A stretch of DNA of 64,000 bases, from assembly GCA_036170915.1 (NCBI GenBank), contig JAVHQC010000010.1, forward strand, positions 1 to 64,000. Direction: 5' to 3'. The notes under the pieces were generated by a model. That model was not told the DNA's origin. It searched no databases and worked only from the letters and a program-made list of their open reading frames with translations. Both the position numbers and the translations under genes were made by a program. Numbering within the stretch: the stretch's first letter is position 1; every line of letters begins with the position of its first letter. The stretch is from Cyanobacteria bacterium auto_48_18 (GTDB taxonomy: Bacteria; Cyanobacteriota; Vampirovibrionia; Obscuribacterales; Obscuribacteraceae). This document shows, piece by piece, positions 1,856-64,000 of this stretch.

Positions 1856-2241
1856 TGGTGGAGGCGGCGAGAATTGCACTCGCGTCCAAAATCATCGAGA
1901 AATAAGTATCTACAAGCTTAGTCTGCTATTTCCCCAGTTACCTTGCGGCCCGCTGAGATTGGCACAAACAGCCAACCGGGATCGCGATTATGTCTTAACT
2001 GAAACTAGCAATCGCTAACTTTGTTTCAGTGCAACCACCGTGTCTTACCCTAAAGCGACGGGTAGTCAAGTCGCTTTCGAGTCCTAGAAGCCTAAGTTAA
2101 GTTAGGCAACCGCAGCGAGGCTGCGGCTAGGGAATTTGATGACATTATTTGCATCTGTGTTTTGCTTACTTGTTAACGAAGGATCAAGCTCCCCGACCTG
2201 CAACTCATGACCCTATAACCCTGTCGAATCTGAACGCCCCC
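1856..2241 (-). ncRNA. ssrA: tmRNA (386 nt); tag reading frame 2152-2102 encodes ANNVIKFPSRSLAAVA*
   Basis: 5' GGGGGCGTTCAGATTCGACAGG and 3' GACGCGAGTGCAATTCTCGCCGCCTCCACCA form a tRNA-Ala-like acceptor with G3-U70; internal tag ORF starts GCA AAT AAT. Confidence 0.97.
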
Positions 2242-8491: not shown

Positions 8492-8574
8492 TGCCGAAGA
8501 TCGGACTTGAACCGATACACCCTTGCGGGCGGTTGATTTTGAGTCAACTGCGTCTGCCATTTCGCCACTTCGGC
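8492..8574 (-). tRNA. tRNA-Leu(CAA), CCA not encoded
   Basis: GCCGAAG/CTTCGGC-A acceptor, TGGCGAAATGGCAGACGC D-arm, GTTGA-CTCAAAA-TCAAC anticodon arm, long variable arm CCCGCAAGGG, GGTTCAAGTCC T-arm. Confidence 0.96.
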
Positions 8575-28099: not shown

Positions 28100-28206
28100 C
28101 CACGAAGATGGTGTCCGATGTGCCCTGGTGGGTAGCCTGACTGAGGATTCTCATCCTATTACAGTTGCGGGACAGCGATGGATTTGCACCATTCTTCCCC
28201 CACCAG
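28100..28206 (-). promoter_or_regulatory. cobalamin riboswitch (compact, no P8-P12 extension) upstream of nrdAB
   Basis: CUGGUGGG...CCCACCAG closing stem, GGGAAG, UGGUGCAAAUCCA T-loop, GCUGUCCCGCAACUGUAA, B12-box AGUCAG; downstream GGACA complementary to the L5 loop UGUCC. Confidence 0.9.
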
Positions 28207-28739
28207 ATTAGTTCAGTACTCTTCGCAAGCCGATCGAACTTTTCAAATACGCTTTCTAGTAAAAAGAAGCGATTAAAATCGCCTCTCTCAGGTCCACAAG
28301 AAACTTGCTTCACTAAGGGAGTATTCGTTTTTGTATTGTTCAACCGACTTAAAAGGAGCTTTGAACTGATCCCTGTTCTTCAGGGCACTCAGTTAAATTT
28401 TGCGATAAATCTCCTGTAGTCGATTCGCATTGACAGCAAGGTAACACTTGCAAAAAAACAATACAATAGCTACCCCAAAACGATCAAAAAAAGAACTCAA
28501 AGCGCCGAGCCTATCGAGCTTAGACCATGGGAGACTAGGCAAATGGAGATCCCAGTAATCACCAAAGATGACACCACTGCGTATATCTTTCCAGGCTAAG
28601 TGCGTATGCATTAGCTGTGTAGCCTTGACCATATTCACCAATTAAATTTGCAGAAAGGCGATGATAAAAGAAGAATTCATTGTTTTTTCGCCGATATATA
28701 AGCGCCGGCAAAGCCTATATACTTTTCCTTAAGCGCCTC

Positions 28740-53636: not shown

Positions 53637-55604
53637 TTGATGAAAAAACAACTGCTCACAGCTTTAACGTGTTTGATGGCAACGAGCCTGCTCACAGGCT
53701 GCATTGCCCCGCGCAAAAATACAACCAATCGCGTGGGCATTCCCACGAGTTCGCTAGCCACAGATCCGGCAGATCCTGATGCAGCGAAAACTGCAGAATC
53801 AAATACGCAGCAACCGTCGGGTAAATTGACTTTTCTTTTTCCCAATCCCGGACCACCCAAACTGGTCACCAAAGACGGTGCGGAATACTGGCAATCGCGT
53901 GGCGAAGTGGGACAGTTTGGCGGCTCTCTAAAGCTCGGTAGTTTCGGCGGCGGCCCCAAAACATTCAACCCATGGGAAGCTTCCGACGTAGAAAGTCACG
54001 GCATTGGCATGCTGCAATTTGACTCTCTAGTCGATTTCGATCCATGGAGCGGCAAAGCCATTCCTAAGCTGGCCAAATCGTTTAAGGTCAGCGAAGACGG
54101 GCGCACCATCGACTTTGTCATGCGCAAAGGTTTGAAGTGGTCAGACGGTCATCCACTCACCGCTGACGATGCCGTGTTCACCTATGGCAATCTAATTAAA
54201 AACGGATTTGGCGAAACCAGTTCACGCGACACCATTTCTACACCAGGAGATTATCCTGACGTTGTAAAAGTGGGCGAAGATACTGTTAGCTTTCGCTTCA
54301 AAAAACCTTTTTCACCTTTTCTAGCTAATTTAAATGCCGTGATGGTGGCACCCAAGCATATTTTCGAGCCCATAACAAAAGGCTCGAAGGCAGACTTTCA
54401 TAATTTTTGGAATATCAACAGCGATCCAAAAACGTTTGTGGCATCAGGGGCCATGATTGTAGAAAGATATGTCCCTGGCCAGAGACTTGAGTTTAAGCGC
54501 AATCCTCATTATTCTTTCGTCGATAAAGAAGGCCGCCAGTTGCCTTATTTAGACAAGATGGTAATTGGCATCGTGCCTGATCAAAATACAATGATCATCA
54601 AATTTCTTGGTGAAGAAATTGATTTGCTCGACACTCGATCGGTGCGCGGCATTGACGCAGCGTTGATGAAACAGCGCGAAAGCAGTGGCAATTTCACCAT
54701 GTATAACCTCGGGCCAGACGACGGCACCATGTTCTTGATGTTCAACCTCTGCCAGCGGAAAGATCCAAAAACCGGAAAATTCTACGTGGACCCAATCAAG
54801 CAAAGTTGGTTCAACGACGAAAAATTCAGATGGGCAATCAGTCACGCAGTTGATCGCAAACGCATCATCAACAACGTGCAAAAGGGCGTTGGTTACCCGC
54901 TTTCTACCAATGAAACTGAAGCCTCACTCTATTTCAATAAAGCCTTAAAACAAATCGAATACGACCCTGCCCTGTCGGCAAAACTACTGGCCGAAGCTGG
55001 ATTCGTCAAAAAAGGCAACGACCTTTTTGATGCCAAAGGCAACCGGGTGGAATTCGATTTGCTGACTAATTCGGGTAACACCGGCCGTGATGCCTGTTGC
55101 ATTGCCATCAAAGAAGAACTAAAAAAGCTGGGTATCAAAGTCAATTATCAAGCCATCGAATTTAACACCATGACCAATCGCGTGCATACGAGCCTCGACT
55201 GGCAAGCCATTGTGATGGGCCTCAGTGGCAGCCGTTTTGAGCCCTATGGCGGCGCCAATGTGTGGAAATCAAATGGTCGCATGCACTTGTTTGATACACG
55301 CTTGCCCGACAAAGACGGCACAGTCAAAGCACCTGACGCTCGCCCCTGGGAAATCGAAATCGATAATTTGCTTGATACCGCCGCCGGCACTATGGACGAG
55401 CAAAAACGCATTGAGGCCTACAACCGTTTTCAGAAAATCGCTTACGACAAGCAGCCATTCATCTACATTTACGACATCATGCTGCTCACAGCCGCGCGGA
55501 ATAATCTGGGCAATTACAAACCCACCCCGTACGGCATTTATTACACTCCAAAAGGCACATTGCATAACATCGAAGAAATTTATAAAAAGGGAGCCAAGCA
55601 CTAG
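53637..55604 (+). CDS. second peptide ABC substrate-binding lipoprotein (paralog)
   Basis: Lipobox LTGC, RKGLKWSDGHPLTADDAVFT. Confidence 0.92.
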   Translation: MMKKQLLTALTCLMATSLLTGCIAPRKNTTNRVGIPTSSLATDPADPDAAKTAESNTQQPSGKLTFLFPNPGPPKLVTKDGAEYWQSRGEVGQFGGSLKLGSFGGGPKTFNPWEASDVESHGIGMLQFDSLVDFDPWSGKAIPKLAKSFKVSEDGRTIDFVMRKGLKWSDGHPLTADDAVFTYGNLIKNGFGETSSRDTISTPGDYPDVVKVGEDTVSFRFKKPFSPFLANLNAVMVAPKHIFEPITKGSKADFHNFWNINSDPKTFVASGAMIVERYVPGQRLEFKRNPHYSFVDKEGRQLPYLDKMVIGIVPDQNTMIIKFLGEEIDLLDTRSVRGIDAALMKQRESSGNFTMYNLGPDDGTMFLMFNLCQRKDPKTGKFYVDPIKQSWFNDEKFRWAISHAVDRKRIINNVQKGVGYPLSTNETEASLYFNKALKQIEYDPALSAKLLAEAGFVKKGNDLFDAKGNRVEFDLLTNSGNTGRDACCIAIKEELKKLGIKVNYQAIEFNTMTNRVHTSLDWQAIVMGLSGSRFEPYGGANVWKSNGRMHLFDTRLPDKDGTVKAPDARPWEIEIDNLLDTAAGTMDEQKRIEAYNRFQKIAYDKQPFIYIYDIMLLTAARNNLGNYKPTPYGIYYTPKGTLHNIEEIYKKGAKH

Positions 55605-56572
55605 TGTCGACACCTGTCTACATTTTAAAGCGCATACTGCAAGCATTGCCCTTGCTCTTCTTCATTTCGCTCATGGCATTTACCATGCTCAAACTTTCGC
55701 CCATTGACCCTCTGGCGGCAATGCGTGCTAATCCATCAGTTTCGCAAGCGGCCATCAATGCCGAAGAAGAAAGACTGGGGCTGAACAAACCAGCACCCAT
55801 ACAATATGCAATTTGGTTATCGAGCACACTACAGGGCAATCTTGGTGTTTCCACAACCGGTGGGTCAGTGGCGGCCAGGCTGATGCAACACGCCGGCAAT
55901 ACACTGCTTCTCAATGTGGTGACGCTGTTCTTCACCTGGTTGATTGCTCTGCCCGCAGGCGTCTATGCCGCAGTGCACCGCGGGCGGTTAATCGATAAAT
56001 TATTTGGTTTTCTCACTGCAGTAGGCATGTCGATGCCCACATTTCTACTGAGCTTTCTCTTTCTTATGTTTGCTCTTGCCACACACTGGCTACCAATCGG
56101 CGGCATGACCAGCTCAGACTTTGCCGAGCGTGACACTCTCAGTCAAATTGCCGATATCGCCTACCATTTAATTATTCCTGTATGCGTACTGACATTCGTT
56201 TCACTTGCCGGCATTCAGCGCCAGGTGCGCAGTAATCTCTTAGATGTATTGAGAGCAGATTATGTGCGCAGTGCGCGCGCCAAAGGCTTGTCGGAAGAGA
56301 CGGTAATTTACAAACATGCACTGCGCAACGCCATAAACCCGCTAATCACTTTACTCGGATTTGAATTTGCCGGTCTGCTCAGCGGTGCCGCGTTGACTGA
56401 AATGGTGCTGGCTTACCCTGGCCTAGGACGGCTGACCCTGGAAGGCGTGCTCACCAAAGATATGAATCTAGTTATGGCTTCAATCATGCTTGGAGCGGTA
56501 ATGCTAATTGCAGGCAATTTATTTGCCGACCTCTTGCTCAAATTTACCGACCCCAGAATCACAGTTGAATAA
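55604..56572 (+). CDS. peptide ABC permease (DppB/OppB-like)
   Basis: YILKRILQ, ADYVRSARAKGL (EAA loop), HALRNA, PGLGRL. Confidence 0.92.
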   Translation: MSTPVYILKRILQALPLLFFISLMAFTMLKLSPIDPLAAMRANPSVSQAAINAEEERLGLNKPAPIQYAIWLSSTLQGNLGVSTTGGSVAARLMQHAGNTLLLNVVTLFFTWLIALPAGVYAAVHRGRLIDKLFGFLTAVGMSMPTFLLSFLFLMFALATHWLPIGGMTSSDFAERDTLSQIADIAYHLIIPVCVLTFVSLAGIQRQVRSNLLDVLRADYVRSARAKGLSEETVIYKHALRNAINPLITLLGFEFAGLLSGAALTEMVLAYPGLGRLTLEGVLTKDMNLVMASIMLGAVMLIAGNLFADLLLKFTDPRITVE

Positions 56573-56612
56573 CTTTTGGAAACTTTAGTTGCAATTTTAA
56601 AGGAATCGCTCA

Positions 56613-57764
56613 TTGTCGGCTAACTCGTTATCACCTGCAGAAGCACCAATCAACCCTACACCGGCTCCTCAAAAAGTCAGGGCAGACTTGAAGCACACAG
56701 TTTTGAGTCGTTTGTGGAAAGACAAAGTCTGTCGCGCAGCACTTGTGGGCCTATCATTGCTTTACTTCTGCGCGCTATTTGCCGACATCCTTACGCCTTA
56801 CGCTATGGAATTTAACGATGCCAATGTAGGTAATGCTCCAGCGACGTTGATTCATATTCATGACGATAAAGGTGAGCTTTGCTGGCCCTATGTTTATCAG
56901 GTGCGTCAAGAAAATGATCTGGCCACCTATCGCCAGACTTTTAAAGAAATTGAAACCACCAAATTTCCAATCAAGCTGTTTGTCAAAGGCGACAGCTATT
57001 ATTTACTTGGATTTATACCAATGGACCTGCACCTGTTTGGTGTAGAGCCACCAGCGCGCATCTACTTGCTAGGCGCCGACATGAATGGTCGCGACAATTT
57101 TTCAAGATTGTTCTTTGGCGCTCAGAAAAGTTTGACCATCGGATTTCTTGGCTTATTCATCGCTTTTCCTATTGGTATTCTATATGGTGCCATCGCCGGT
57201 TATGTTGGTGGCGTGGTAGACAACATGATGATGCGTTTTGCTGAAGCAGTTATGTCTATACCGAGTTTCTATTTATTAATCGGACTGGCCGCCGTGTTGC
57301 CACTGGGAATGAGCAGTTCACAGCGTTTTGCTTTGATCACTGTCATTCTTTCATTCATTGGTTGGCCGGGGCTGGCTAGAGTAATTCGCGGTATGGTGCT
57401 GTCGATTCGCGAAGAAGAATTTGTACAGGCCGCTAAGGCCGTAGGCATGTCAGAAATTGCCAACATCGTTCGGCACGTCATTCCTCAGACAGCTAGTTAT
57501 GTCGTTATTGCAGCCACACTGCAGGTGCCTAATTTTATTCTGGCTGAAAGTGGACTGAGCTTAATCGGCCTTGGTATTCAACAACCTGATGCCAGCTGGG
57601 GAAACATGCTTAAAGCGGCCATGGATCAGCCAAACGAGCTGCTCACTCAGCCATGGTTGATAGCGCCAGGCTTCCTTATCTTCTTCACCATTTTGTGTTT
57701 CAACTCTATTGGTGACGTACTGCGCGATGTGCTCGACCCTAAACTTTCTGGCGGTCGCGGCTAA
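56613..57764 (+). CDS. peptide ABC permease (DppC/OppC-like)
   Basis: LLGADMNGRD.FSRL, EEFVQAAKAVG, AESGLS.IGLG, SWG.ML. Confidence 0.92.
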   Translation: MSANSLSPAEAPINPTPAPQKVRADLKHTVLSRLWKDKVCRAALVGLSLLYFCALFADILTPYAMEFNDANVGNAPATLIHIHDDKGELCWPYVYQVRQENDLATYRQTFKEIETTKFPIKLFVKGDSYYLLGFIPMDLHLFGVEPPARIYLLGADMNGRDNFSRLFFGAQKSLTIGFLGLFIAFPIGILYGAIAGYVGGVVDNMMMRFAEAVMSIPSFYLLIGLAAVLPLGMSSSQRFALITVILSFIGWPGLARVIRGMVLSIREEEFVQAAKAVGMSEIANIVRHVIPQTASYVVIAATLQVPNFILAESGLSLIGLGIQQPDASWGNMLKAAMDQPNELLTQPWLIAPGFLIFFTILCFNSIGDVLRDVLDPKLSGGRG

Positions 57765-57985: not shown

Positions 57986-58761
57986 TCAGTGCCTTTGAAT
58001 AGCTGTGTTACCGCTCCAGCCACTACATACAACAAGGGAACCATACATAGCGCATTGATAATGTTGAGTAACTTCGAATTATCTCGACCTTGTTGGGTTA
58101 AAAATTCTCGAAATGAAAAGTAAGTGATGGGCATCCCTATGGCTCCAAGAGCCGCTACTAGCAACAATAAGTAAAAGAAAAATTTTTGCTGATCAGAATC
58201 TGCAGATGAAATTGCCGACAGATAACTATTGGTGAGCGTGAGCATACCAAGCTGGCAAACTAGCAAGTCTTTGTCAAAATCTGATAATTGATCTTTGAAA
58301 ACAACTTTCATGGCCGCAACTACGAGTGTCGGTTTAATGATAGTTGATAACAGTAATAAAACAGCACCCACCAGCAGCAGCTCACAAATGATAAGTGGCC
58401 AGAAAAAGTCTGAGCCAACATACCCTGATAACCATAACAGAGTGATCACTACCGGTAGTAATTTTGCAGTACGGTCCTTCCATTTAGGAGCAATCACATG
58501 AGCCATGACCGCACCAGGCAAAGTTCCAAGTGGTAGTCCAATCATGAGCGCCCCGACAAACTGTTGCGATGGTTCTATTCCATTGATGATTGTGTGCAGC
58601 ACCGCCGAACAGACAAGAATCACAATCGCAAAGAGTAACGTAAAGAACCAACCGGTGTATTGCACAACCGTGAGACAAGCTGGAATTAAAACAATCCAGC
58701 GCAAAACAAATACAATTCTCTCGTGCCGTGCTGGCGCTCTCGCATTATTTTCTGCCATCAC
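57982..58761 (-). CDS. multi-pass membrane hypothetical protein
   Basis: About 7-8 hydrophobic segments; GTGA overlap with the upstream gene. Confidence 0.7.
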   Translation of the reverse strand: MMAENNARAPARHERIVFVLRWIVLIPACLTVVQYTGWFFTLLFAIVILVCSAVLHTIINGIEPSQQFVGALMIGLPLGTLPGAVMAHVIAPKWKDRTAKLLPVVITLLWLSGYVGSDFFWPLIICELLLVGAVLLLLSTIIKPTLVVAAMKVVFKDQLSDFDKDLLVCQLGMLTLTNSYLSAISSADSDQQKFFFYLLLLVAALGAIGMPITYFSFREFLTQQGRDNSKLLNIINALCMVPLLYVVAGAVTQLFKGTD

Positions 58762-59975
58762 AAATTTGCATTACCATGCTGAGCCATCGTTTTAAGTCTG
58801 GCTTCCAGAGCCGTGCGCAGCACATTCGATTGAGTAATGGCATCGGCAATATGCTGAGCCAGTTTGGCACCACCATCAGCGTTTAAGTGCACTGTGTCGC
58901 AAAAATCACCAGCAGTAAAATCAGGGCTATTCGATAGGTCAATGTAACTGGCGTCACCTTGCTTGCAGCGCTCAGCAATTTTGCGCTTGAAACCGTCCCA
59001 GAAAGAATTCGTCAGTAGAGCCCGGTTGGTTGCTGTAAGCGGCATGCCTACTACTAAAACTTTGATGTTGCGACTTTTCATATCTGCCAGAAATTCTTGC
59101 ATGTACTTGAGTTGCACAGCATAAGACGACGGATATGCATTAGAGTATCGATGCATATAATCAACCGTATTATCTACGTAAATTTTTGGCAGATTGGGCC
59201 TGAGCACAGCCTGACCAGGCCTCAAATTACCGCCGTATCCACCAGTGACTAACTTAAGCTGGTCTGCCGCTGTGACCGCTTCGATTTTCTTTGGCGACTG
59301 GTCAGTTTTAACGGCAGGCAAATATTCTGACTTGCTCAGTTCACTCACAACCTGATTGACTGCTGGTACTAATCTGCGCACCGGCAACTCGGTAGAAACG
59401 AAATAAGTGAGGCGCGACCATGGTTCATGAAAGGCCAGGTTGGTGTAGCCAGTCATGTCGTTGTACTGAGAAAAATAACGATATGAATCTGTGGCGCCGG
59501 CGGCGGACAAAGTGTTATCAATAAAATCCCGTGGTGAGACCGTCAACACTAGAACTGACGGCGCACGTCTCTGGTACAGAGCTCGACCAATGACAAAATG
59601 ATCTGAAACCATGGCGCCCGGCAGTGCAGAAAGAAAAACAGAGGGCTTGGCGCCAATACGTTTTGCCAGATCGTTTTCTAGAGTAATGCAAGTTCTATTG
59701 GATGTCAGATCAATAATTTGTCCGCTCGTGTTGGCATCGGCAGCTTGCAGACCGCCAATTTGCGAACTGCCGCAAACCACAACATCAGCTGGTCTTTCAC
59801 TGGTTAGAAATAGACGAGCTAACCACCAGCTGGCGGGTTTGCCCTCAGCCAACGCTTCATTGCTGAGAGCAAAATCGCGCGCATCAAGTGCGGCAATCTT
59901 AACTACGGGCAGTTTGGCTAGAGCCAGATTGACAAAGGCAAAAAGTATTAAAGCGATGAGAAAACGTGGCACCAT
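58758..59975 (-). CDS. SGNH/DUF1574-like (DltD-related) membrane-anchored protein
   Basis: N-terminal TM, VVVCGSS, FCDTVHLNADG (DxxH). Confidence 0.75.
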   Translation of the reverse strand: MVPRFLIALILFAFVNLALAKLPVVKIAALDARDFALSNEALAEGKPASWWLARLFLTSERPADVVVCGSSQIGGLQAADANTSGQIIDLTSNRTCITLENDLAKRIGAKPSVFLSALPGAMVSDHFVIGRALYQRRAPSVLVLTVSPRDFIDNTLSAAGATDSYRYFSQYNDMTGYTNLAFHEPWSRLTYFVSTELPVRRLVPAVNQVVSELSKSEYLPAVKTDQSPKKIEAVTAADQLKLVTGGYGGNLRPGQAVLRPNLPKIYVDNTVDYMHRYSNAYPSSYAVQLKYMQEFLADMKSRNIKVLVVGMPLTATNRALLTNSFWDGFKRKIAERCKQGDASYIDLSNSPDFTAGDFCDTVHLNADGGAKLAQHIADAITQSNVLRTALEARLKTMAQHGNANL

Positions 59976-60037: not shown

Positions 60038-60234
60038 GTGCACTTAAAGCACCAGACCCCTGTGCCGGTTCACACACCGGGCTCACAGGGGCCTGCTCCA
60101 AACAAACTGCCTCACGGCAGCATACCGGGCTTTCACTGTATCGAGACGAGAGCCGCTCCATGTGATTTGAGATTTACTCCGGGATCCATTTCTGGTGGCC
60201 CGCTAACATTGAGAGCATTGGCTTCGTGCGATAT
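60038..60234 (-). ncRNA. candidate structured non-coding RNA (~197 nt), family unassigned (raiA-like?)
   Basis: Nested helices with G-U pairs valid on the minus strand, two GNRA tetraloops, 5'/3' end pairing, dedicated promoter. Confidence 0.65.
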
Positions 60235-60240
60235 GTTTCA

Positions 60241-60268
60241 ATTATAGCAAGATGACAAGAGGGCGCAA
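60241..60268 (-). promoter_or_regulatory. sigma70 promoter TTGCGC-16-TATAAT with extended -10 (TGcTATAAT)
   Basis: Read directly; predicted TSS ~60234. Confidence 0.75.
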
Positions 60269-60381
60269 GTACCCTCAAGCTTAAATTTATCGGTCACAAC
60301 TTCCTAACCGGTTAAGGTAATTTTGCAACAGGCCACAGAGCTACAAACTCGCTAAATCGAAGCAACGCAGCGTCCACAATT

Positions 60382-63300
60382 TTACTTTTCAGCTTGCTTT
60401 TCTTTGTTCAGCAAAGCGACGAAGACCTTGACCAGGCGCGGATCCCACTCTTTGCCTGAACCTTCCATTATCAGTTTCATGGCATCTTCGTGACTGTGCG
60501 CTTCGCGGTAAGGCCTTTCACTGGTCATGGCGGTATAGGCATCTACTAATGAGACGATGCGCGACTCAATTGGAATGACATCACCCTTGATACCATTAGG
60601 ATAACCACTGCCATCCCAATGTTCTTGGTAAGATTCAACAATGGGTGAAATTTTTGCCAACACTTTGGCCGGTTCTAAGAATTTCGCGCCGGTGTGCGGT
60701 ACCTGATTGATATAAACCAAATCTTCGTCAGAGAGTGGGTCTGGGCGTTTCAAAGTTTCTTCAGGCACAGCCATTTTGCCCAAATTACAGAGCACCGCCG
60801 CCAGTGACACAATTTCAGTGTGCTCTTTGGTCAAGTGCAATGATTGAGCAATACGATTGGCATATCCGTACGCCCGTGATGAGCGATCTGGACCGTACGA
60901 AGAACGTTCTTCCACCAGGCGAATCAATTGCGCCAGCATACCCAGCAAGCCCTTCTCACGAATCAGCTCAACGTCAAATTCGGGCACAAGCTCGCCAACA
61001 GGTTTTTCAACTACAGGGCCCATGCGAGTATCAACTTTCATAGCCATCTTGAGCTGTTCTTCACCACCATCAGCCAGGCTCGGAATCAAATCATCAGCCA
61101 CTGTGCAGACCTGGTTACGACCGCGGTGCTTAGCAAGGAAAAGCGCCTGGTCAGCCAGTTCGAACAATCTGTCTTTGTCTTGCGCGTCATTAGGGAAAGT
61201 AGCTACACCTACTGAAGCTGTGACAATACCCCAACCTTCTACCGGCCTCTCGCGCATAGCAGCGCAAGCACGTTCTGCCACCATTTTCGCCCATTTCAAA
61301 TCAGTTTCAGGCAAGAGCACCACAAATTCTTCACCACCAAATCGGCCCACTGTGTCAATTTCGCGCACACTGCGCTTAATTACGTTACCAATGTGAATGA
61401 TGGCGGCGTCACCAACGTGGTGACCTTTGCTGTCGTTAATGCGTTTGAGATAATCGAGGTCGACGATGATAAAGGAGAAGGGGTGACCAAAACGCTGGAA
61501 ACGATCAATTTCTTTGGTCAGCTGTTCTTCAAAATATCTTCTGTTAAACAGACCGGTCATGGGATCGGTAACCGCTTGCCTCTCAACAGTGGCAAACAGT
61601 TCGGCGTGTGAGATCACCACGCCCACCCGGTCTGCCAGGTCGATAATCATACGCATATCTTTATCAGGGAATGGATGGTCACGATCGCGTGCCACCAGCA
61701 TTAGTGCCGCCTTAAAGTTATTACCCTGTCCTAGAGGCACCAAAATGGCTGAGCGATTATTCCATTCAGCAGACAATATGTCTGGCTGAAGACGCTCTTT
61801 GATTTCATCAGGTTTAATAAAAACAGTCTGGCCATCACGCAACAAATCTAGTGAGCCGGCAAAAATGCGATCGGCAATTGTGTGTGCCATGGGCTTGGGC
61901 GGCGGCTCATCGGTAGCGTGGCTGAGTTCTACCGGTTCAGGCTGCGGAAACTCTTCTGAGTTACCGGCAAATTTGCACTTAGTGGCATCATCTGTGGGGC
62001 CATCGTACAAACTGACGATACAAAGATCTAGTTGGAAATAATCTTGCACCGATCGCACAAGCGTATCCATAATTTGATCCGCTTCTTTAAGCGATCGTTT
62101 GATTTCTACAGAAACCTTGTTGATAAGCGCGTCGCGCACCTGGTCGGCGCGAATTTGTTGCACGGCCATATCGGCTCTAATTACGTTTGAAAGGTGACCA
62201 GCAATAGTCAGACCCAGTTCTCTATCTTGTGGTCTGAACTGCGGCCGCTTAGGTTGGCGCTGCCAGAGACCAATAACACCAAGGCGAGTGCCCTCTGAAA
62301 TCAGAGGCAGCACCAGAGCCATATCGTGACCGAAGAAAGGGTCGCCCTTTCTCGAATATTCCATATTTACGACTTTGCCGCGAGCCGATTCGAACACCGC
62401 CACAAACGGATTCTCTTTATTGTCCAGCTCCACATTGGCCACATCAGAATTGATTTGCGGCTCTAGCACACCACTGTCAGGGTTGAATAAATAAATTTGC
62501 GAGTGAATAAAGCCCATGTGATCAGCCACCAGCAAAACTGATCGCACTAGCGAATCTCGGCTGGTCTGGCCTTTTGAATCACGAAAGAGACTGGCAATTT
62601 CATTGATCAGCTTCATTTCCTGGGCGTCCATCTCAATTTTCGATTGGTCGAAAGATTGTTGAACAACCACTGAGAGCATCTCAGCTACTTTCTGTAAAAC
62701 TACGGCATCTTCAGTGCTCCACTCACGTGGTTTACCACACTGTTGCAACTCCAAAAATCCAGAAAAAATACTGCGTGAGCGCAGTTGTACCATCAGACGA
62801 CCACGCACATCACCGAGTTCGAGCAGTGACGATAGAGTGCGTGAGGCTTTGTGCAAATCGGTATCTTGCGCAGTATCAGGAATGCTAATTACACCCGCAC
62901 CTGATTCATCAGGAAAACGTGAGAGAAACTCGAGCACAATCGCCATTGACTCTTGCGAATTGAGTTGATTTTCCACAAAACATGTATGGCCATTGATTGA
63001 ATATTCGTTAGTAACAGCCAGCTGATCGCCCACTACTTTCCATATCAAGCCTCGATCGGCTTTCAATTCTTTGGTCAATACTTCGATGGCATATTGCAAA
63101 ATTGAAGTGAGATCGCTTGAGTGTCTGAGCTGTCCGATAATATCGCTGATGATTGTCTGTGCCGTAGGCGGCATCAATTTTTTGGCATCACCATCGGTGC
63201 CCTTAATAGCCTTAAGATTACTGCGAGTGGCATTCTTGTTAACACTCTTGCGCGCTTCTGGTGGTGTCAAAAGGGCATCGTGATTAGATACCGCCGATCC

Positions 63301-64000
63301 GCCATAGATAGCCGATCCGGGGCTTTCACTGCCATGGCCATTGCCACCTTGCGACAGAACAAAGCTGCCGCTGGCATCACCTTGAAAAACTGCCGTAGTC
63401 GGTTGACTGCTGCGAAAGAAAGTTGCATCAGGCGGCGGCAACCCAGCTGCCAGATGCTGGGCAATAATTTTATCCATCTCGTCTTGACTGTGCGTAGCAC
63501 CAGGCTGAGTCTGAGCATTGGCTGCAGCGGATTGGGCCTGAGATGGCATTCCCATAGCACCCTGCGCAATAACCTGATTTGATCCGGTTTGAACAAATTC
63601 AGCTTCAGGTGTGTCCACGGCAATGGGTGAAATTTTGTTGGGGCCGGTGACACTTTGAGCCGCCTGCAGAACATGTTCGCCGCTGACGGTGACGTCGTAA
63701 TAACTTGGGTCAGTGGTCTCACCCTGCAAAATAAGACCTTGCTGAATTGGCGCTTTAACCACTGGCCATGCCGCTTTCATTCGCTGCACTGAAAGTGGCG
63801 CGCTGCCGCCTGGGCCGAGCGACACACGACAATCTTCTAGACGGTTGCTCTCAGCCAAATTGAGCGACTGCCAAATGGGCAACAACCGGTTGAAAGCTTC
63901 GCGCACAATGGCCGGCTCCATTGAGCCAGTGCACTGATACTTTTCAGCGTTAGGCGACTCCATCGCTTGCTGACCATAAACAACAATGGAGAGCCCAGGA
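60382..64000 (-). CDS. multi-GAF diguanylate cyclase with degenerate HD-GYP domain (frame open to window edge; probably 5'-partial)
   Basis: GAF repeats, DPMTGLFNRR, REID I-site plus GGEEF, then CNLGK and QEHWDGSGYP; no stop between 63963 and 64000. Confidence 0.9.
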   Translation of the reverse strand, partial: PGLSIVVYGQQAMESPNAEKYQCTGSMEPAIVREAFNRLLPIWQSLNLAESNRLEDCRVSLGPGGSAPLSVQRMKAAWPVVKAPIQQGLILQGETTDPSYYDVTVSGEHVLQAAQSVTGPNKISPIAVDTPEAEFVQTGSNQVIAQGAMGMPSQAQSAAANAQTQPGATHSQDEMDKIIAQHLAAGLPPPDATFFRSSQPTTAVFQGDASGSFVLSQGGNGHGSESPGSAIYGGSAVSNHDALLTPPEARKSVNKNATRSNLKAIKGTDGDAKKLMPPTAQTIISDIIGQLRHSSDLTSILQYAIEVLTKELKADRGLIWKVVGDQLAVTNEYSINGHTCFVENQLNSQESMAIVLEFLSRFPDESGAGVISIPDTAQDTDLHKASRTLSSLLELGDVRGRLMVQLRSRSIFSGFLELQQCGKPREWSTEDAVVLQKVAEMLSVVVQQSFDQSKIEMDAQEMKLINEIASLFRDSKGQTSRDSLVRSVLLVADHMGFIHSQIYLFNPDSGVLEPQINSDVANVELDNKENPFVAVFESARGKVVNMEYSRKGDPFFGHDMALVLPLISEGTRLGVIGLWQRQPKRPQFRPQDRELGLTIAGHLSNVIRADMAVQQIRADQVRDALINKVSVEIKRSLKEADQIMDTLVRSVQDYFQLDLCIVSLYDGPTDDATKCKFAGNSEEFPQPEPVELSHATDEPPPKPMAHTIADRIFAGSLDLLRDGQTVFIKPDEIKERLQPDILSAEWNNRSAILVPLGQGNNFKAALMLVARDRDHPFPDKDMRMIIDLADRVGVVISHAELFATVERQAVTDPMTGLFNRRYFEEQLTKEIDRFQRFGHPFSFIIVDLDYLKRINDSKGHHVGDAAIIHIGNVIKRSVREIDTVGRFGGEEFVVLLPETDLKWAKMVAERACAAMRERPVEGWGIVTASVGVATFPNDAQDKDRLFELADQALFLAKHRGRNQVCTVADDLIPSLADGGEEQLKMAMKVDTRMGPVVEKPVGELVPEFDVELIREKGLLGMLAQLIRLVEERSSYGPDRSSRAYGYANRIAQSLHLTKEHTEIVSLAAVLCNLGKMAVPEETLKRPDPLSDEDLVYINQVPHTGAKFLEPAKVLAKISPIVESYQEHWDGSGYPNGIKGDVIPIESRIVSLVDAYTAMTSERPYREAHSHEDAMKLIMEGSGKEWDPRLVKVFVALLNKEKQAEK

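What the first reader, a model, noticed from the sequence alone, without database searches (positions are those of the whole stretch)
60038..60268. Unannotated ~197-nt structured RNA with its own strong promoter, resembling a divergent raiA-motif RNA
Seen (minus strand): promoter TTGCGC-16-TATAAT with an extended TG, and a transcript from ~60234. The ends pair (GCAC-GAAGC with GCUUU-AA-GUGC). GCC-AA-UGCUC can pair with GAGCA-GGC, and CGGGC with GCCCG. There are GNRA hairpins CCA-GAAA-UGG and CUGCC-GUGA-GGCAG, and a 12-bp stem CAGGCCCCUGUG/CACAGGGGUCUG capped by CCGGU/ACCGG whose G-U pair works only on this strand. That stem shares CAGGC with the earlier helix, so alternative folds are possible. 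No convincing ORF covers it. Inference from my memory of raiA RNA (known from Bacillota and Actinomycetota): the motifs AAGYCRAUGC, GCRGGC, GAUCC, CAUGGWGCGGCU, AAGYCC and AGCAGGC occur in the same order here. Alternatives are an atypical 6S RNA (similar size) or a novel riboswitch/leader for the SGNH gene. Any of these would be notable in this lineage.
Basis: partly seen in the sequence, partly recalled or inferred. Interest (0 to 1): 0.8.

Follow-up and report, generated by a model that had tools for sequence, protein, structure and literature searches.

The report
New family-wide bacterial structured RNA
A roughly 190-letter RNA gene with its own promoter is kept in one copy across most genomes of one family of uncultured non-photosynthetic cyanobacteria; it matched no catalogued RNA family, is neither raiA nor 6S RNA, and most likely works by binding a protein through a nearly unchanging hairpin.

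Summary
The RNA is real; the raiA reading is not supported. Window 60234-~60046 (-) folds better than all 200 shuffles (z -3.6). A covariance model finds it in 87 of 103 other genomes of the family (Obscuribacteraceae, by named records), nearly always once. It finds it in 0 of 3 sister-family genomes and in none of 120 other phylum genomes. The promoter is conserved. One metatranscriptome contig spans 60049-60234 and nothing beside it (one study, contig only). Two domains: a variable 5' stem-bubble-short arm, and a near-invariant 3' hairpin with 7 of 17 pairs compensating. 6S: the family's true 6S lies elsewhere. Downstream genes vary and are often convergent, so it is not a riboswitch or leader. 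Best guess (0.45): a trans-acting RNA whose 3' hairpin docks a protein. Rivals: truncated 6S-like polymerase decoy, base-pairing sRNA. Not found in Rfam or the papers searched.

The parts
60282..60300 (-). Position of a conserved upstream element (two AT-rich half-sites, 11-bp period) in the family; degenerate in the window itself
   Evidence: Pattern found in 32 of 71 loci, 27 of them 52-56 nt before the -10; shuffles mean 1.7, max 6; pattern was written after seeing the sequences; the window does not match it
60241..60268 (-). Sigma-70-type promoter: -35 at 60268-60263, 16-nt spacer, extended TG, -10 TATAAT at 60246-60241
   Evidence: Sequence; conservation across 71 loci
60046..60234 (-). 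The ncRNA gene, about 186-189 nt
   Evidence: Fold z -3.61; model R1 140.7 bits; RNA-seq contig 60049-60234
60139..60233 (-). 5' domain: irregular closing stem (median 20 bp) around a bubble that holds a short arm; sequence variable
   Evidence: Predicted in 43 of 48 homologues; covariation modest (12 of 500 shuffles reach the score); not more stable than shuffles on its own (median z -0.6)
60180..60202 (-). Short internal arm (CGGG/CCCG helix plus 2-3 more pairs), the most conserved part of the 5' domain
   Evidence: 93% of cells paired in the 4-bp helix
60106..60121 (-). Optional linker hairpin (GUGA loop); variable or missing in relatives
60053..60099 (-). 3' domain: GGAG, 12-bp stem (60095-60084 with 60064-60053), mostly 3-nt NGN bulge (60083-60081), nearly invariant 5-bp stem, G-(G/A/U)-GUGA hexaloop (60075-60070)
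   Evidence: 7 of 17 pairs compensatory; z below -2 in 48 of 48; loop GGGUGA 36, GAGUGA 7, GUGUGA 4, other 1 of 48
60046..60052 (-). Short U-rich tail, probable 3' end
   Evidence: At least 5 T in 8 nt after the hairpin in 25 of 41 loci; RNA contig stops at 60049
60382..63963 (-). Upstream neighbour: GAF-GAF-GGDEF-HD-GYP protein (1193 aa); conserved context, not shown to be functionally linked
   Evidence: Pfam and NCBIfam; same gene upstream in 34 of 42 loci
58758..59975 (-). Downstream neighbour: DUF1574/DltD-like protein (405 aa, both hits below cut-off); not a constant partner
   Evidence: follows the RNA in 18 of 42 loci

Best explanation
A previously uncatalogued, family-wide, trans-acting structured RNA of Obscuribacteraceae that works as a protein-binding RNA (decoy or scaffold). 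Shown: own conserved promoter, one copy per genome, independence from downstream genes, a covarying 3' hairpin whose bulge, upper stem and loop barely change. Suggested by one RNA-seq contig: it accumulates as a discrete ~186-nt species. Inferred: an upstream element tunes its transcription; the 3' hairpin also ends and protects the transcript; its invariant bulge, upper stem and loop are read by a specific protein; the variable 5' stem and bubble give stability or a second, looser contact. The partner protein is unidentified.
For: Model R1 finds it in 87 of 103 family genomes, one copy in all but one. Promoter conserved. Downstream gene varies in identity and orientation. RNA-seq contig of 187 nt lies at 60049-60234 with no flanking cover, while the other run covers both flanks. 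The lower 3' stem changes in compensating pairs while the upper 5 bp, the bulge G and the loop stay fixed: shape-plus-sequence constraint of this kind is what protein or ligand sites show, and a terminator alone would not need it (established knowledge). A strong U-tract is missing in 16 of 41 loci, so the hairpin is not just a terminator. The conserved letters are mostly paired (mean pairing probability 0.98) and so poorly placed to act as a pairing seed. Hfq was not found in 3 of 3 family genomes (weak, because the cyanobacterial control did not ring either).
Against: No partner was identified. CsrA was found in 0 of 3 family genomes, Ro60 in 1 of 3, and no AcnA/IRP-type aconitase passed the cut-off in 5 of 5. 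Expression rests on one contig of depth 4.4 from one study; contigs cannot prove ends or strand, and DNA can be present in such libraries. The 5' domain fold has only modest covariation. 16 family genomes gave no hit, several of them over 90% complete, so the RNA may be dispensable. A small-molecule ligand would explain the same conservation pattern.
Confidence: 0.45

Rival explanations
1. A second, truncated 6S-like RNA: the 5' domain (closing stem, bubble, short arm) mimics an open promoter and binds sigma-70 RNA polymerase, and the 3' hairpin is an accessory module.
For: The topology of stem-bubble-arm resembles the centre of 6S. B. subtilis 6S-1 cut down to the bubble and two short arms still binds polymerase and templates pRNA at about 10-fold lower affinity (PMC8876501, passages). 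Size is similar and the promoter is strong. R1's best hit among 29 6S loci falls on a 6S gene, but at E 0.68.
Against: The family has a normal 6S elsewhere: on a different contig in 22 of 22 genomes with both. No sequence or profile homology. The arm has a median 7 bp against 32 bp. The ends do not pair with each other. The strongest conservation lies outside the 6S-like part. In E. coli, shortening the arm abolishes binding (same paper).
Confidence: 0.17
2. A base-pairing regulatory sRNA: single-stranded bubble or linker segments pair with mRNAs, and the 3' hairpin serves as terminator and stabiliser.
For: Own promoter with a possible regulator site. Moderately conserved single-stranded words in the bubble and linker. 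U-tail in 25 of 41 loci.
Against: These words are lost in several lineages while the 3' hairpin stays fixed. The loop's 12-mer complement occurs once in the own genome (the gene itself) and shorter complements are under-represented. No pairing with the cognate 6S beyond shuffles (1 of 15 at p<=0.05). No genome-wide target prediction was possible.
Confidence: 0.18
3. A ligand-binding RNA (for example c-di-GMP, given the constant GGDEF/HD-GYP neighbour) acting in trans, or a riboswitch.
For: The GGDEF/HD-GYP gene lies upstream in 34 of 42 loci. Invariant bulge and loop letters.
Against: No Rfam riboswitch hit. No fixed downstream gene. No covarying alternative fold. The sister family has the same GGDEF gene (51-54% identical) with no RNA behind it, so the neighbourhood may be plain inheritance.
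Confidence: 0.12
4. A highly divergent raiA-motif RNA.
For: The window carries six raiA-like words in order. Size is similar and it acts in trans.
Against: RF03072: no hit in 61 family genomes, controls 7 of 7 at 169-201 bits. Words in order in 1 of 48; P1 5' word and the P4/PK words in 0 of 48; PK1 gives 4 of 6 pairs. Profile score 13.8 against null 12.1 +/- 1.5. No terminal P1.
Confidence: 0.02

Closest known systems
raiA motif RNA (RF03072; ModT)
   Same: About 200 nt, one copy per genome, own transcript, trans-acting, function through structure (PMC10861870, PMC12968392)
   Different: No terminal P1 with its two conserved bulges, no PK1/PK2 core, no detectable homology; different phylum
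6S RNA (RF00013), including the family's own 6S
   Same: Size; irregular closing stem, bubble and a G-rich helix beside it; sigma-70 promoter
   Different: Arm 7 vs 32 bp; 5' and 3' ends not paired; extra invariant 3' hairpin; no homology; coexists with a true 6S
Iron-responsive element (geometry only)
   Same: Lower stem, 5' bulge, 5-bp upper stem, 6-nt loop; the GAGUGA loop (7 of 48) equals SIREs motif 17 (PMC12230718, passages)
   Different: The commonest loop GGGUGA is not among the listed motifs seen; bulge C not fixed; stands in its own transcript; no AcnA/IRP-type aconitase above cut-off in 5 family genomes
Protein-decoy sRNAs (CsrB/RsmZ, Y RNA)
   Same: Proposed mode of action: trans RNA read by a protein
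   Different: GGA words sit in stems rather than repeated loops; CsrA 0 of 3 and Ro60 1 of 3 family genomes, Ro60 not adjacent

Membership tests
raiA motif RNA | Scores against RF03072 | tested here: not met
   No hit at the locus; 0 of 61 family genomes at E<=0.1; controls 7 of 7 above cut-off
raiA motif RNA | P1 closing 5' and 3' ends with conserved GU/GGU bulges | tested here: not met
   P1 5' word in 0 of 48 vs 64 of 78 raiA; 5' end pairs with the middle in 43 of 48
raiA motif RNA | PK1: six-pair pseudoknot between P3b loop and linker | tested here: not met
   At most 4 contiguous pairs in the window vs 6 in a control; the linker word is in 1 of 48
raiA motif RNA | Located near comFC and raiA genes (typical, not strict) | tested here: not met
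   Neighbours are a GGDEF/HD-GYP gene and variable genes
raiA motif RNA | Compact P3/P4/PK1/PK2 tertiary core | not testable with these tools
   Needs probing or cryo-EM
6S RNA | Scores against 6S models | tested here: not met
   RF00013 none in own genome; phylum-specific model R2 gives 104.5 bits on a true 6S and nothing on 24 loci of this RNA; cyanobacterial 6S profile hits 22 of 30 Vampirovibrionia 6S candidates at E<0.001 but 0 of 31 of this RNA
6S RNA | Rod closed by pairing of 5' and 3' ends | tested here: not met
6S RNA | Central bubble flanked by helices | tested here: inconclusive
   A bubble is predicted but is smaller and partly paired; covariation modest
6S RNA | Long apical arm with -35-like region | tested here: not met
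   Median 7 bp (4-15) vs 32 bp (21-45)
6S RNA | Binds sigma-70 holoenzyme and templates pRNA | not testable with these tools
   Only contigs were available
Riboswitch or leader | Fixed position 5' of a same-strand gene of one function | tested here: not met
   18 of 42 same gene; 8 loci cluster with a convergent gene; others vary
Riboswitch or leader | Ligand-dependent refolding | not testable with these tools
   Alternative helices lack covariation
tmRNA, SRP RNA, RNase P RNA | Is the missing copy of a housekeeping RNA | tested here: not met
   tmRNA and SRP (5 of 5) lie elsewhere; RNase P in 4 of 4 relatives, missing only from the 86%-complete own assembly
Iron-responsive element | C bulge, 5-bp stem, CAGWGH-type loop and an IRP/AcnA partner | tested here: not met
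   Geometry fits; loop matches a listed motif in 7 of 48; AcnA-type below cut-off in 5 of 5

The most novel reading that the evidence does not exclude
A two-module RNA of independent origin: a miniature promoter mimic that binds RNA polymerase beside the ordinary 6S RNA, joined to an invariant hairpin that docks a protein or ligand (possibly tied to c-di-GMP signalling by the neighbouring cyclase) and so switches polymerase capture on and off.
Probability: 0.12. Interest if true: 0.8.

Novelty: new variant of a known kind. Interest (0 to 1): 0.52.

Why it matters
It is a new RNA family, not a new copy of a known one. It arose on one branch of the non-photosynthetic cyanobacteria, a group for which my searches found no ncRNA paper, and was then kept in one copy in most sampled genomes with a nearly frozen hairpin. 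Lineage-wide structured RNAs of this size (6S, raiA, OLE) have tended to touch core machinery. The two-domain model and the defined invariant site make pull-down and polymerase-binding tests direct. The near-invariant motif is also a family marker. Limits: one family, no cultured member that I know of (recalled), no mechanism shown.

Tried and rejected
1. raiA. 2. 6S orthologue or paralogue. A recalled resemblance to cyanobacterial 6S proved wrong once real 6S loci were fetched. 3. Missing tmRNA, SRP or RNase P. 4. Coding on either strand: the plus-strand frame is frameshifted; an NUG after GGAG has invariant third positions and 1-2 nt indels. 5. Pairing with 6S: net binding 0 to -1.9 kcal/mol, no better than shuffles. 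6. Pho regulation: the upstream element has the 8+3 bp geometry of the cyanobacterial SphR box (PMC1906773), but the matrix scores at p<=0.05 in only 1 of 17 pstS upstream regions, that one probably inside the ORF. The own-genome scan gave no regulon that I could recognise from the translations. 7. IRE/aconitase. 8. CsrB-like or Y RNA. 9. Loop-to-bubble pseudoknot and 5'-3' pairing: no covariation. 10. The first loose raiA-like pattern returned chance matches; its one Melainabacteria row lies in coding-like sequence. 11. Weak hits outside the family were not confirmed: G057, G052 at E 0.02, two at E>0.1. 12. No match in viral contigs. 13. Flank regions without RNA cover prove nothing by themselves. 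14. The look-ups of earlier findings that ran returned nothing.

Full report
1. Observation. On the minus strand the window has TTGCGC, 16 nt, TG and TATAAT (60268-60241), with +1 expected at 60234. The stretch 60234-60046 folds at -77.8 kcal/mol, z -3.61, better than 200 of 200 shuffles. The plus strand folds less well (z -1.98). Rfam gives no match over the element at E<=10 and none over the RNA in 19 homologous loci at E<=5. The only frame of 50 or more codons across it (plus strand, 93 codons) is frameshifted in the closest relatives.

2. Homologues. BLASTN found it in 41 of 48 family genomes and in 1 of 32 others, weakly and unconfirmed. I aligned 31 of 42 loci, leaving out 10 near-identical genus members and one truncated copy, and built model R1. 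R1 finds 87 of 103 family genomes, one copy each except one with two, and 0 of 3 sister-family genomes. It finds 1 weak hit (E 0.02) among 120 other class genomes and no hit at E<0.1 among 120 phylum genomes. These searches score only 16-23 candidates per genome, so distant relatives could be missed. At the sister family's orthologous upstream gene the next ORF starts at once and R1 without filters finds nothing. Exact 3' patterns give 47 and 45 loci in 185,579 genomes. Most are titled Obscuribacterales, Obscuribacteraceae or Melainabacteria, which is my basis for the family name. The few with other labels carry the whole RNA profile, and I take them as mislabelled (inference). All 47 metagenome matches score on the profile, 42 reaching into the 5' domain. 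Viral contigs gave 0.

3. Anatomy. The 3' domain is a 12-bp stem, a mostly 3-nt bulge, a 5-bp stem and a hexaloop. 7 of 17 pairs change on both sides. The whole structure beats 500 of 500 shuffles on covariation score, a control that ignores relatedness. The domain's z is below -2 in 48 of 48 (the 48 are alignment A2 without its 6 weak self-complementary rows). The upper stem, bulge G and loop are nearly fixed. The 5' domain is an irregular stem of about 20 bp around a bubble with a 7-bp arm. It is predicted in 43 of 48, but its covariation is modest (12 of 500 shuffles reach it) and it is no more stable than shuffles (median z -0.6). It is therefore likely, not proven. The alternative helices tested (5' GCUC with 3' GAGC, 5' end with 3' end, loop with bubble) do not covary.

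4. Transcription. TATAAT is exact in 45 of 71 de-duplicated loci and TTG sits at a 16-18 spacer in 53 of 71. A tandem AT-rich element lies 52-56 nt before the -10 in 27 of 71; the pattern is post hoc and the window's own copy is degenerate. It has SphR Pho-box geometry (PMC1906773), but is not enriched at pstS (1 of 17). An UP element or another OmpR-type site is as likely (inference). In one metatranscriptome a single 187-nt contig maps to 60049-60234, from the predicted +1 to just past the base of the terminal hairpin, with no cover on either side; the second run, of unrecorded kind, covers both flanks. This is one study, depth 4.4 and a contig only, so it is a hint that the RNA is discrete and abundant, not proof.

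5. Context. The upstream gene (GAF-GAF-GGDEF-HD-GYP) is shared in 34 of 42 loci. The downstream gene is the DUF1574/DltD-like gene in 18 of 42 (14 from one genus), a convergent gene cluster in 8, and varied in the rest. This excludes a leader or riboswitch for the downstream gene and points to action in trans.

6. raiA test. raiA is defined by terminal P1, P3-P6, two pseudoknots and 51 conserved positions (PMC10861870; PMC12968392). RF03072 finds nothing in 61 family genomes (that call's own controls were silent), whereas 7 of 7 clostridial loci score 169-201 bits and the window locus gives no hit. The P1 5' word is in 0 of 48 against 64 of 78 raiA loci, and PK1 offers 4 pairs against 6. The 78 control loci were selected by three of these words, so those three counts are circular. 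Profile-profile score is 13.8 against a null of 12.1 +/- 1.5 (4 of 40 reach it), while the positive control scores 34.7 against a null maximum of 21.6. The resemblance is a coincidence of this one sequence.

7. 6S test. The own assembly (86% complete) lacks 6S and RNase P RNA. Relatives have a sub-threshold RF00013 hit in 26 of 48 genomes, on a different contig from this RNA in 22 of 22 genomes with both. That RNA has complementary ends and is homologous to cyanobacterial 6S (22 of 30 at E<0.001), whereas this RNA is not (0 of 31). Model R2 scores a genus 6S at 104.5 bits and nothing on this RNA in 24 loci (R2 has only 9 pairs). The arm is 7 bp against 32 bp. Membership fails. Working like a 6S is not excluded, because truncated B. 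subtilis 6S-1 still functions in vitro (PMC8876501).

8. Mechanism. Shown: gene, promoter, distribution, 3' structure, independence from neighbours. Inferred: the pattern of a free lower stem under a frozen bulge, upper stem and loop marks a recognition site, most simply for a protein. I put this at 0.45, against base-pairing sRNA 0.18, truncated 6S-like decoy 0.17, ligand-binding RNA 0.12 and raiA 0.02. Candidate partners checked in 3-5 genomes (CsrA, Ro60, Hfq, AcnA-type aconitase) do not fit, and pairing with 6S is no better than chance.

9. Literature. Searches for Melainabacteria + noncoding RNA (7 papers, none relevant by title and abstract start), Obscuribacter + sRNA (0), Vampirovibrionia + ncRNA (0), Obscuribacterales with transcriptome or small RNA (none of the 10 listed names the order) and the loop words (0) found no description. 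The library lacks most subscription papers, and motif catalogues in supplements were not searched. Seen: PMC12968392, parts 1-4 of 6, supplement unreadable. PMC10861870, parts 1-2 of 7, part 1 of 109 of its alignment with rows cut, and a taxon search of 4 supplements with 0 hits, weak because the alignment rows seen carry accessions only. PMC1906773, PMC6596454, PMC8876501 and PMC12230718, passages only. Remarks on CsrB, Y RNA, UP elements, HD-GYP motifs and OLE are recalled.

10. Verdict. A real, new, family-restricted structured RNA; not raiA, not 6S, not a leader. Interest 0.52.

Noticed in passing
L153-L182, L196 (for example G009:C169:4443-4651): The true 6S RNA of Vampirovibrionia scores below the Rfam cut-off in 37 of 38 genomes with a hit, so it would go unannotated; in Obscuribacterales it has a variable insertion in the apical loop and is homologous to cyanobacterial 6S.
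   Followed up: partly
G000 whole assembly: No 6S and no RNase P RNA in the 86%-complete assembly, though relatives have both; probably unassembled.
   Followed up: partly
window 60382-63963 (-): The cyclase has an intact GGEEF motif, but its HD-GYP domain reads LCNLGK where the HD motif is expected (expected motif recalled), so it may be a degenerate, binding-only domain.
   Followed up: no
window 1856-2241 (-), 8492-8574 (-), 28110-28222 (-): One-piece tmRNA with tag ANNVIKFPSRSLAAVA, tRNA-Leu(CAA) and a cobalamin riboswitch.
   Followed up: no
window 53637-57764 (+): Oligopeptide-type ABC transporter genes (binding protein and two permeases); a similar permease gene lies convergent to the RNA in several relatives, which suggests the ancestral layout.
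   Followed up: partly
L431-L433, G000:C6:240000-242066: Aconitase-like genes of about 770-785 aa match the AcnA model only far below its cut-off in 5 of 5 family genomes; type not determined.
   Followed up: no
L142 and L230: These copies carry an extra hairpin inserted after the 5' domain (RNA 227-241 nt), while L190 is reduced to about 164 nt; the 3' hairpin is unchanged in all three.
   Followed up: no
L135 and L136: Two genus members have a shortened bulge and an altered loop in the otherwise fixed hairpin; natural variants useful for binding tests.
   Followed up: no
G290, G155, G293, G038, G042, G159: Family genomes of 90% or more completeness without an R1 hit; real losses, diverged copies or assembly gaps were not distinguished.
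   Followed up: no
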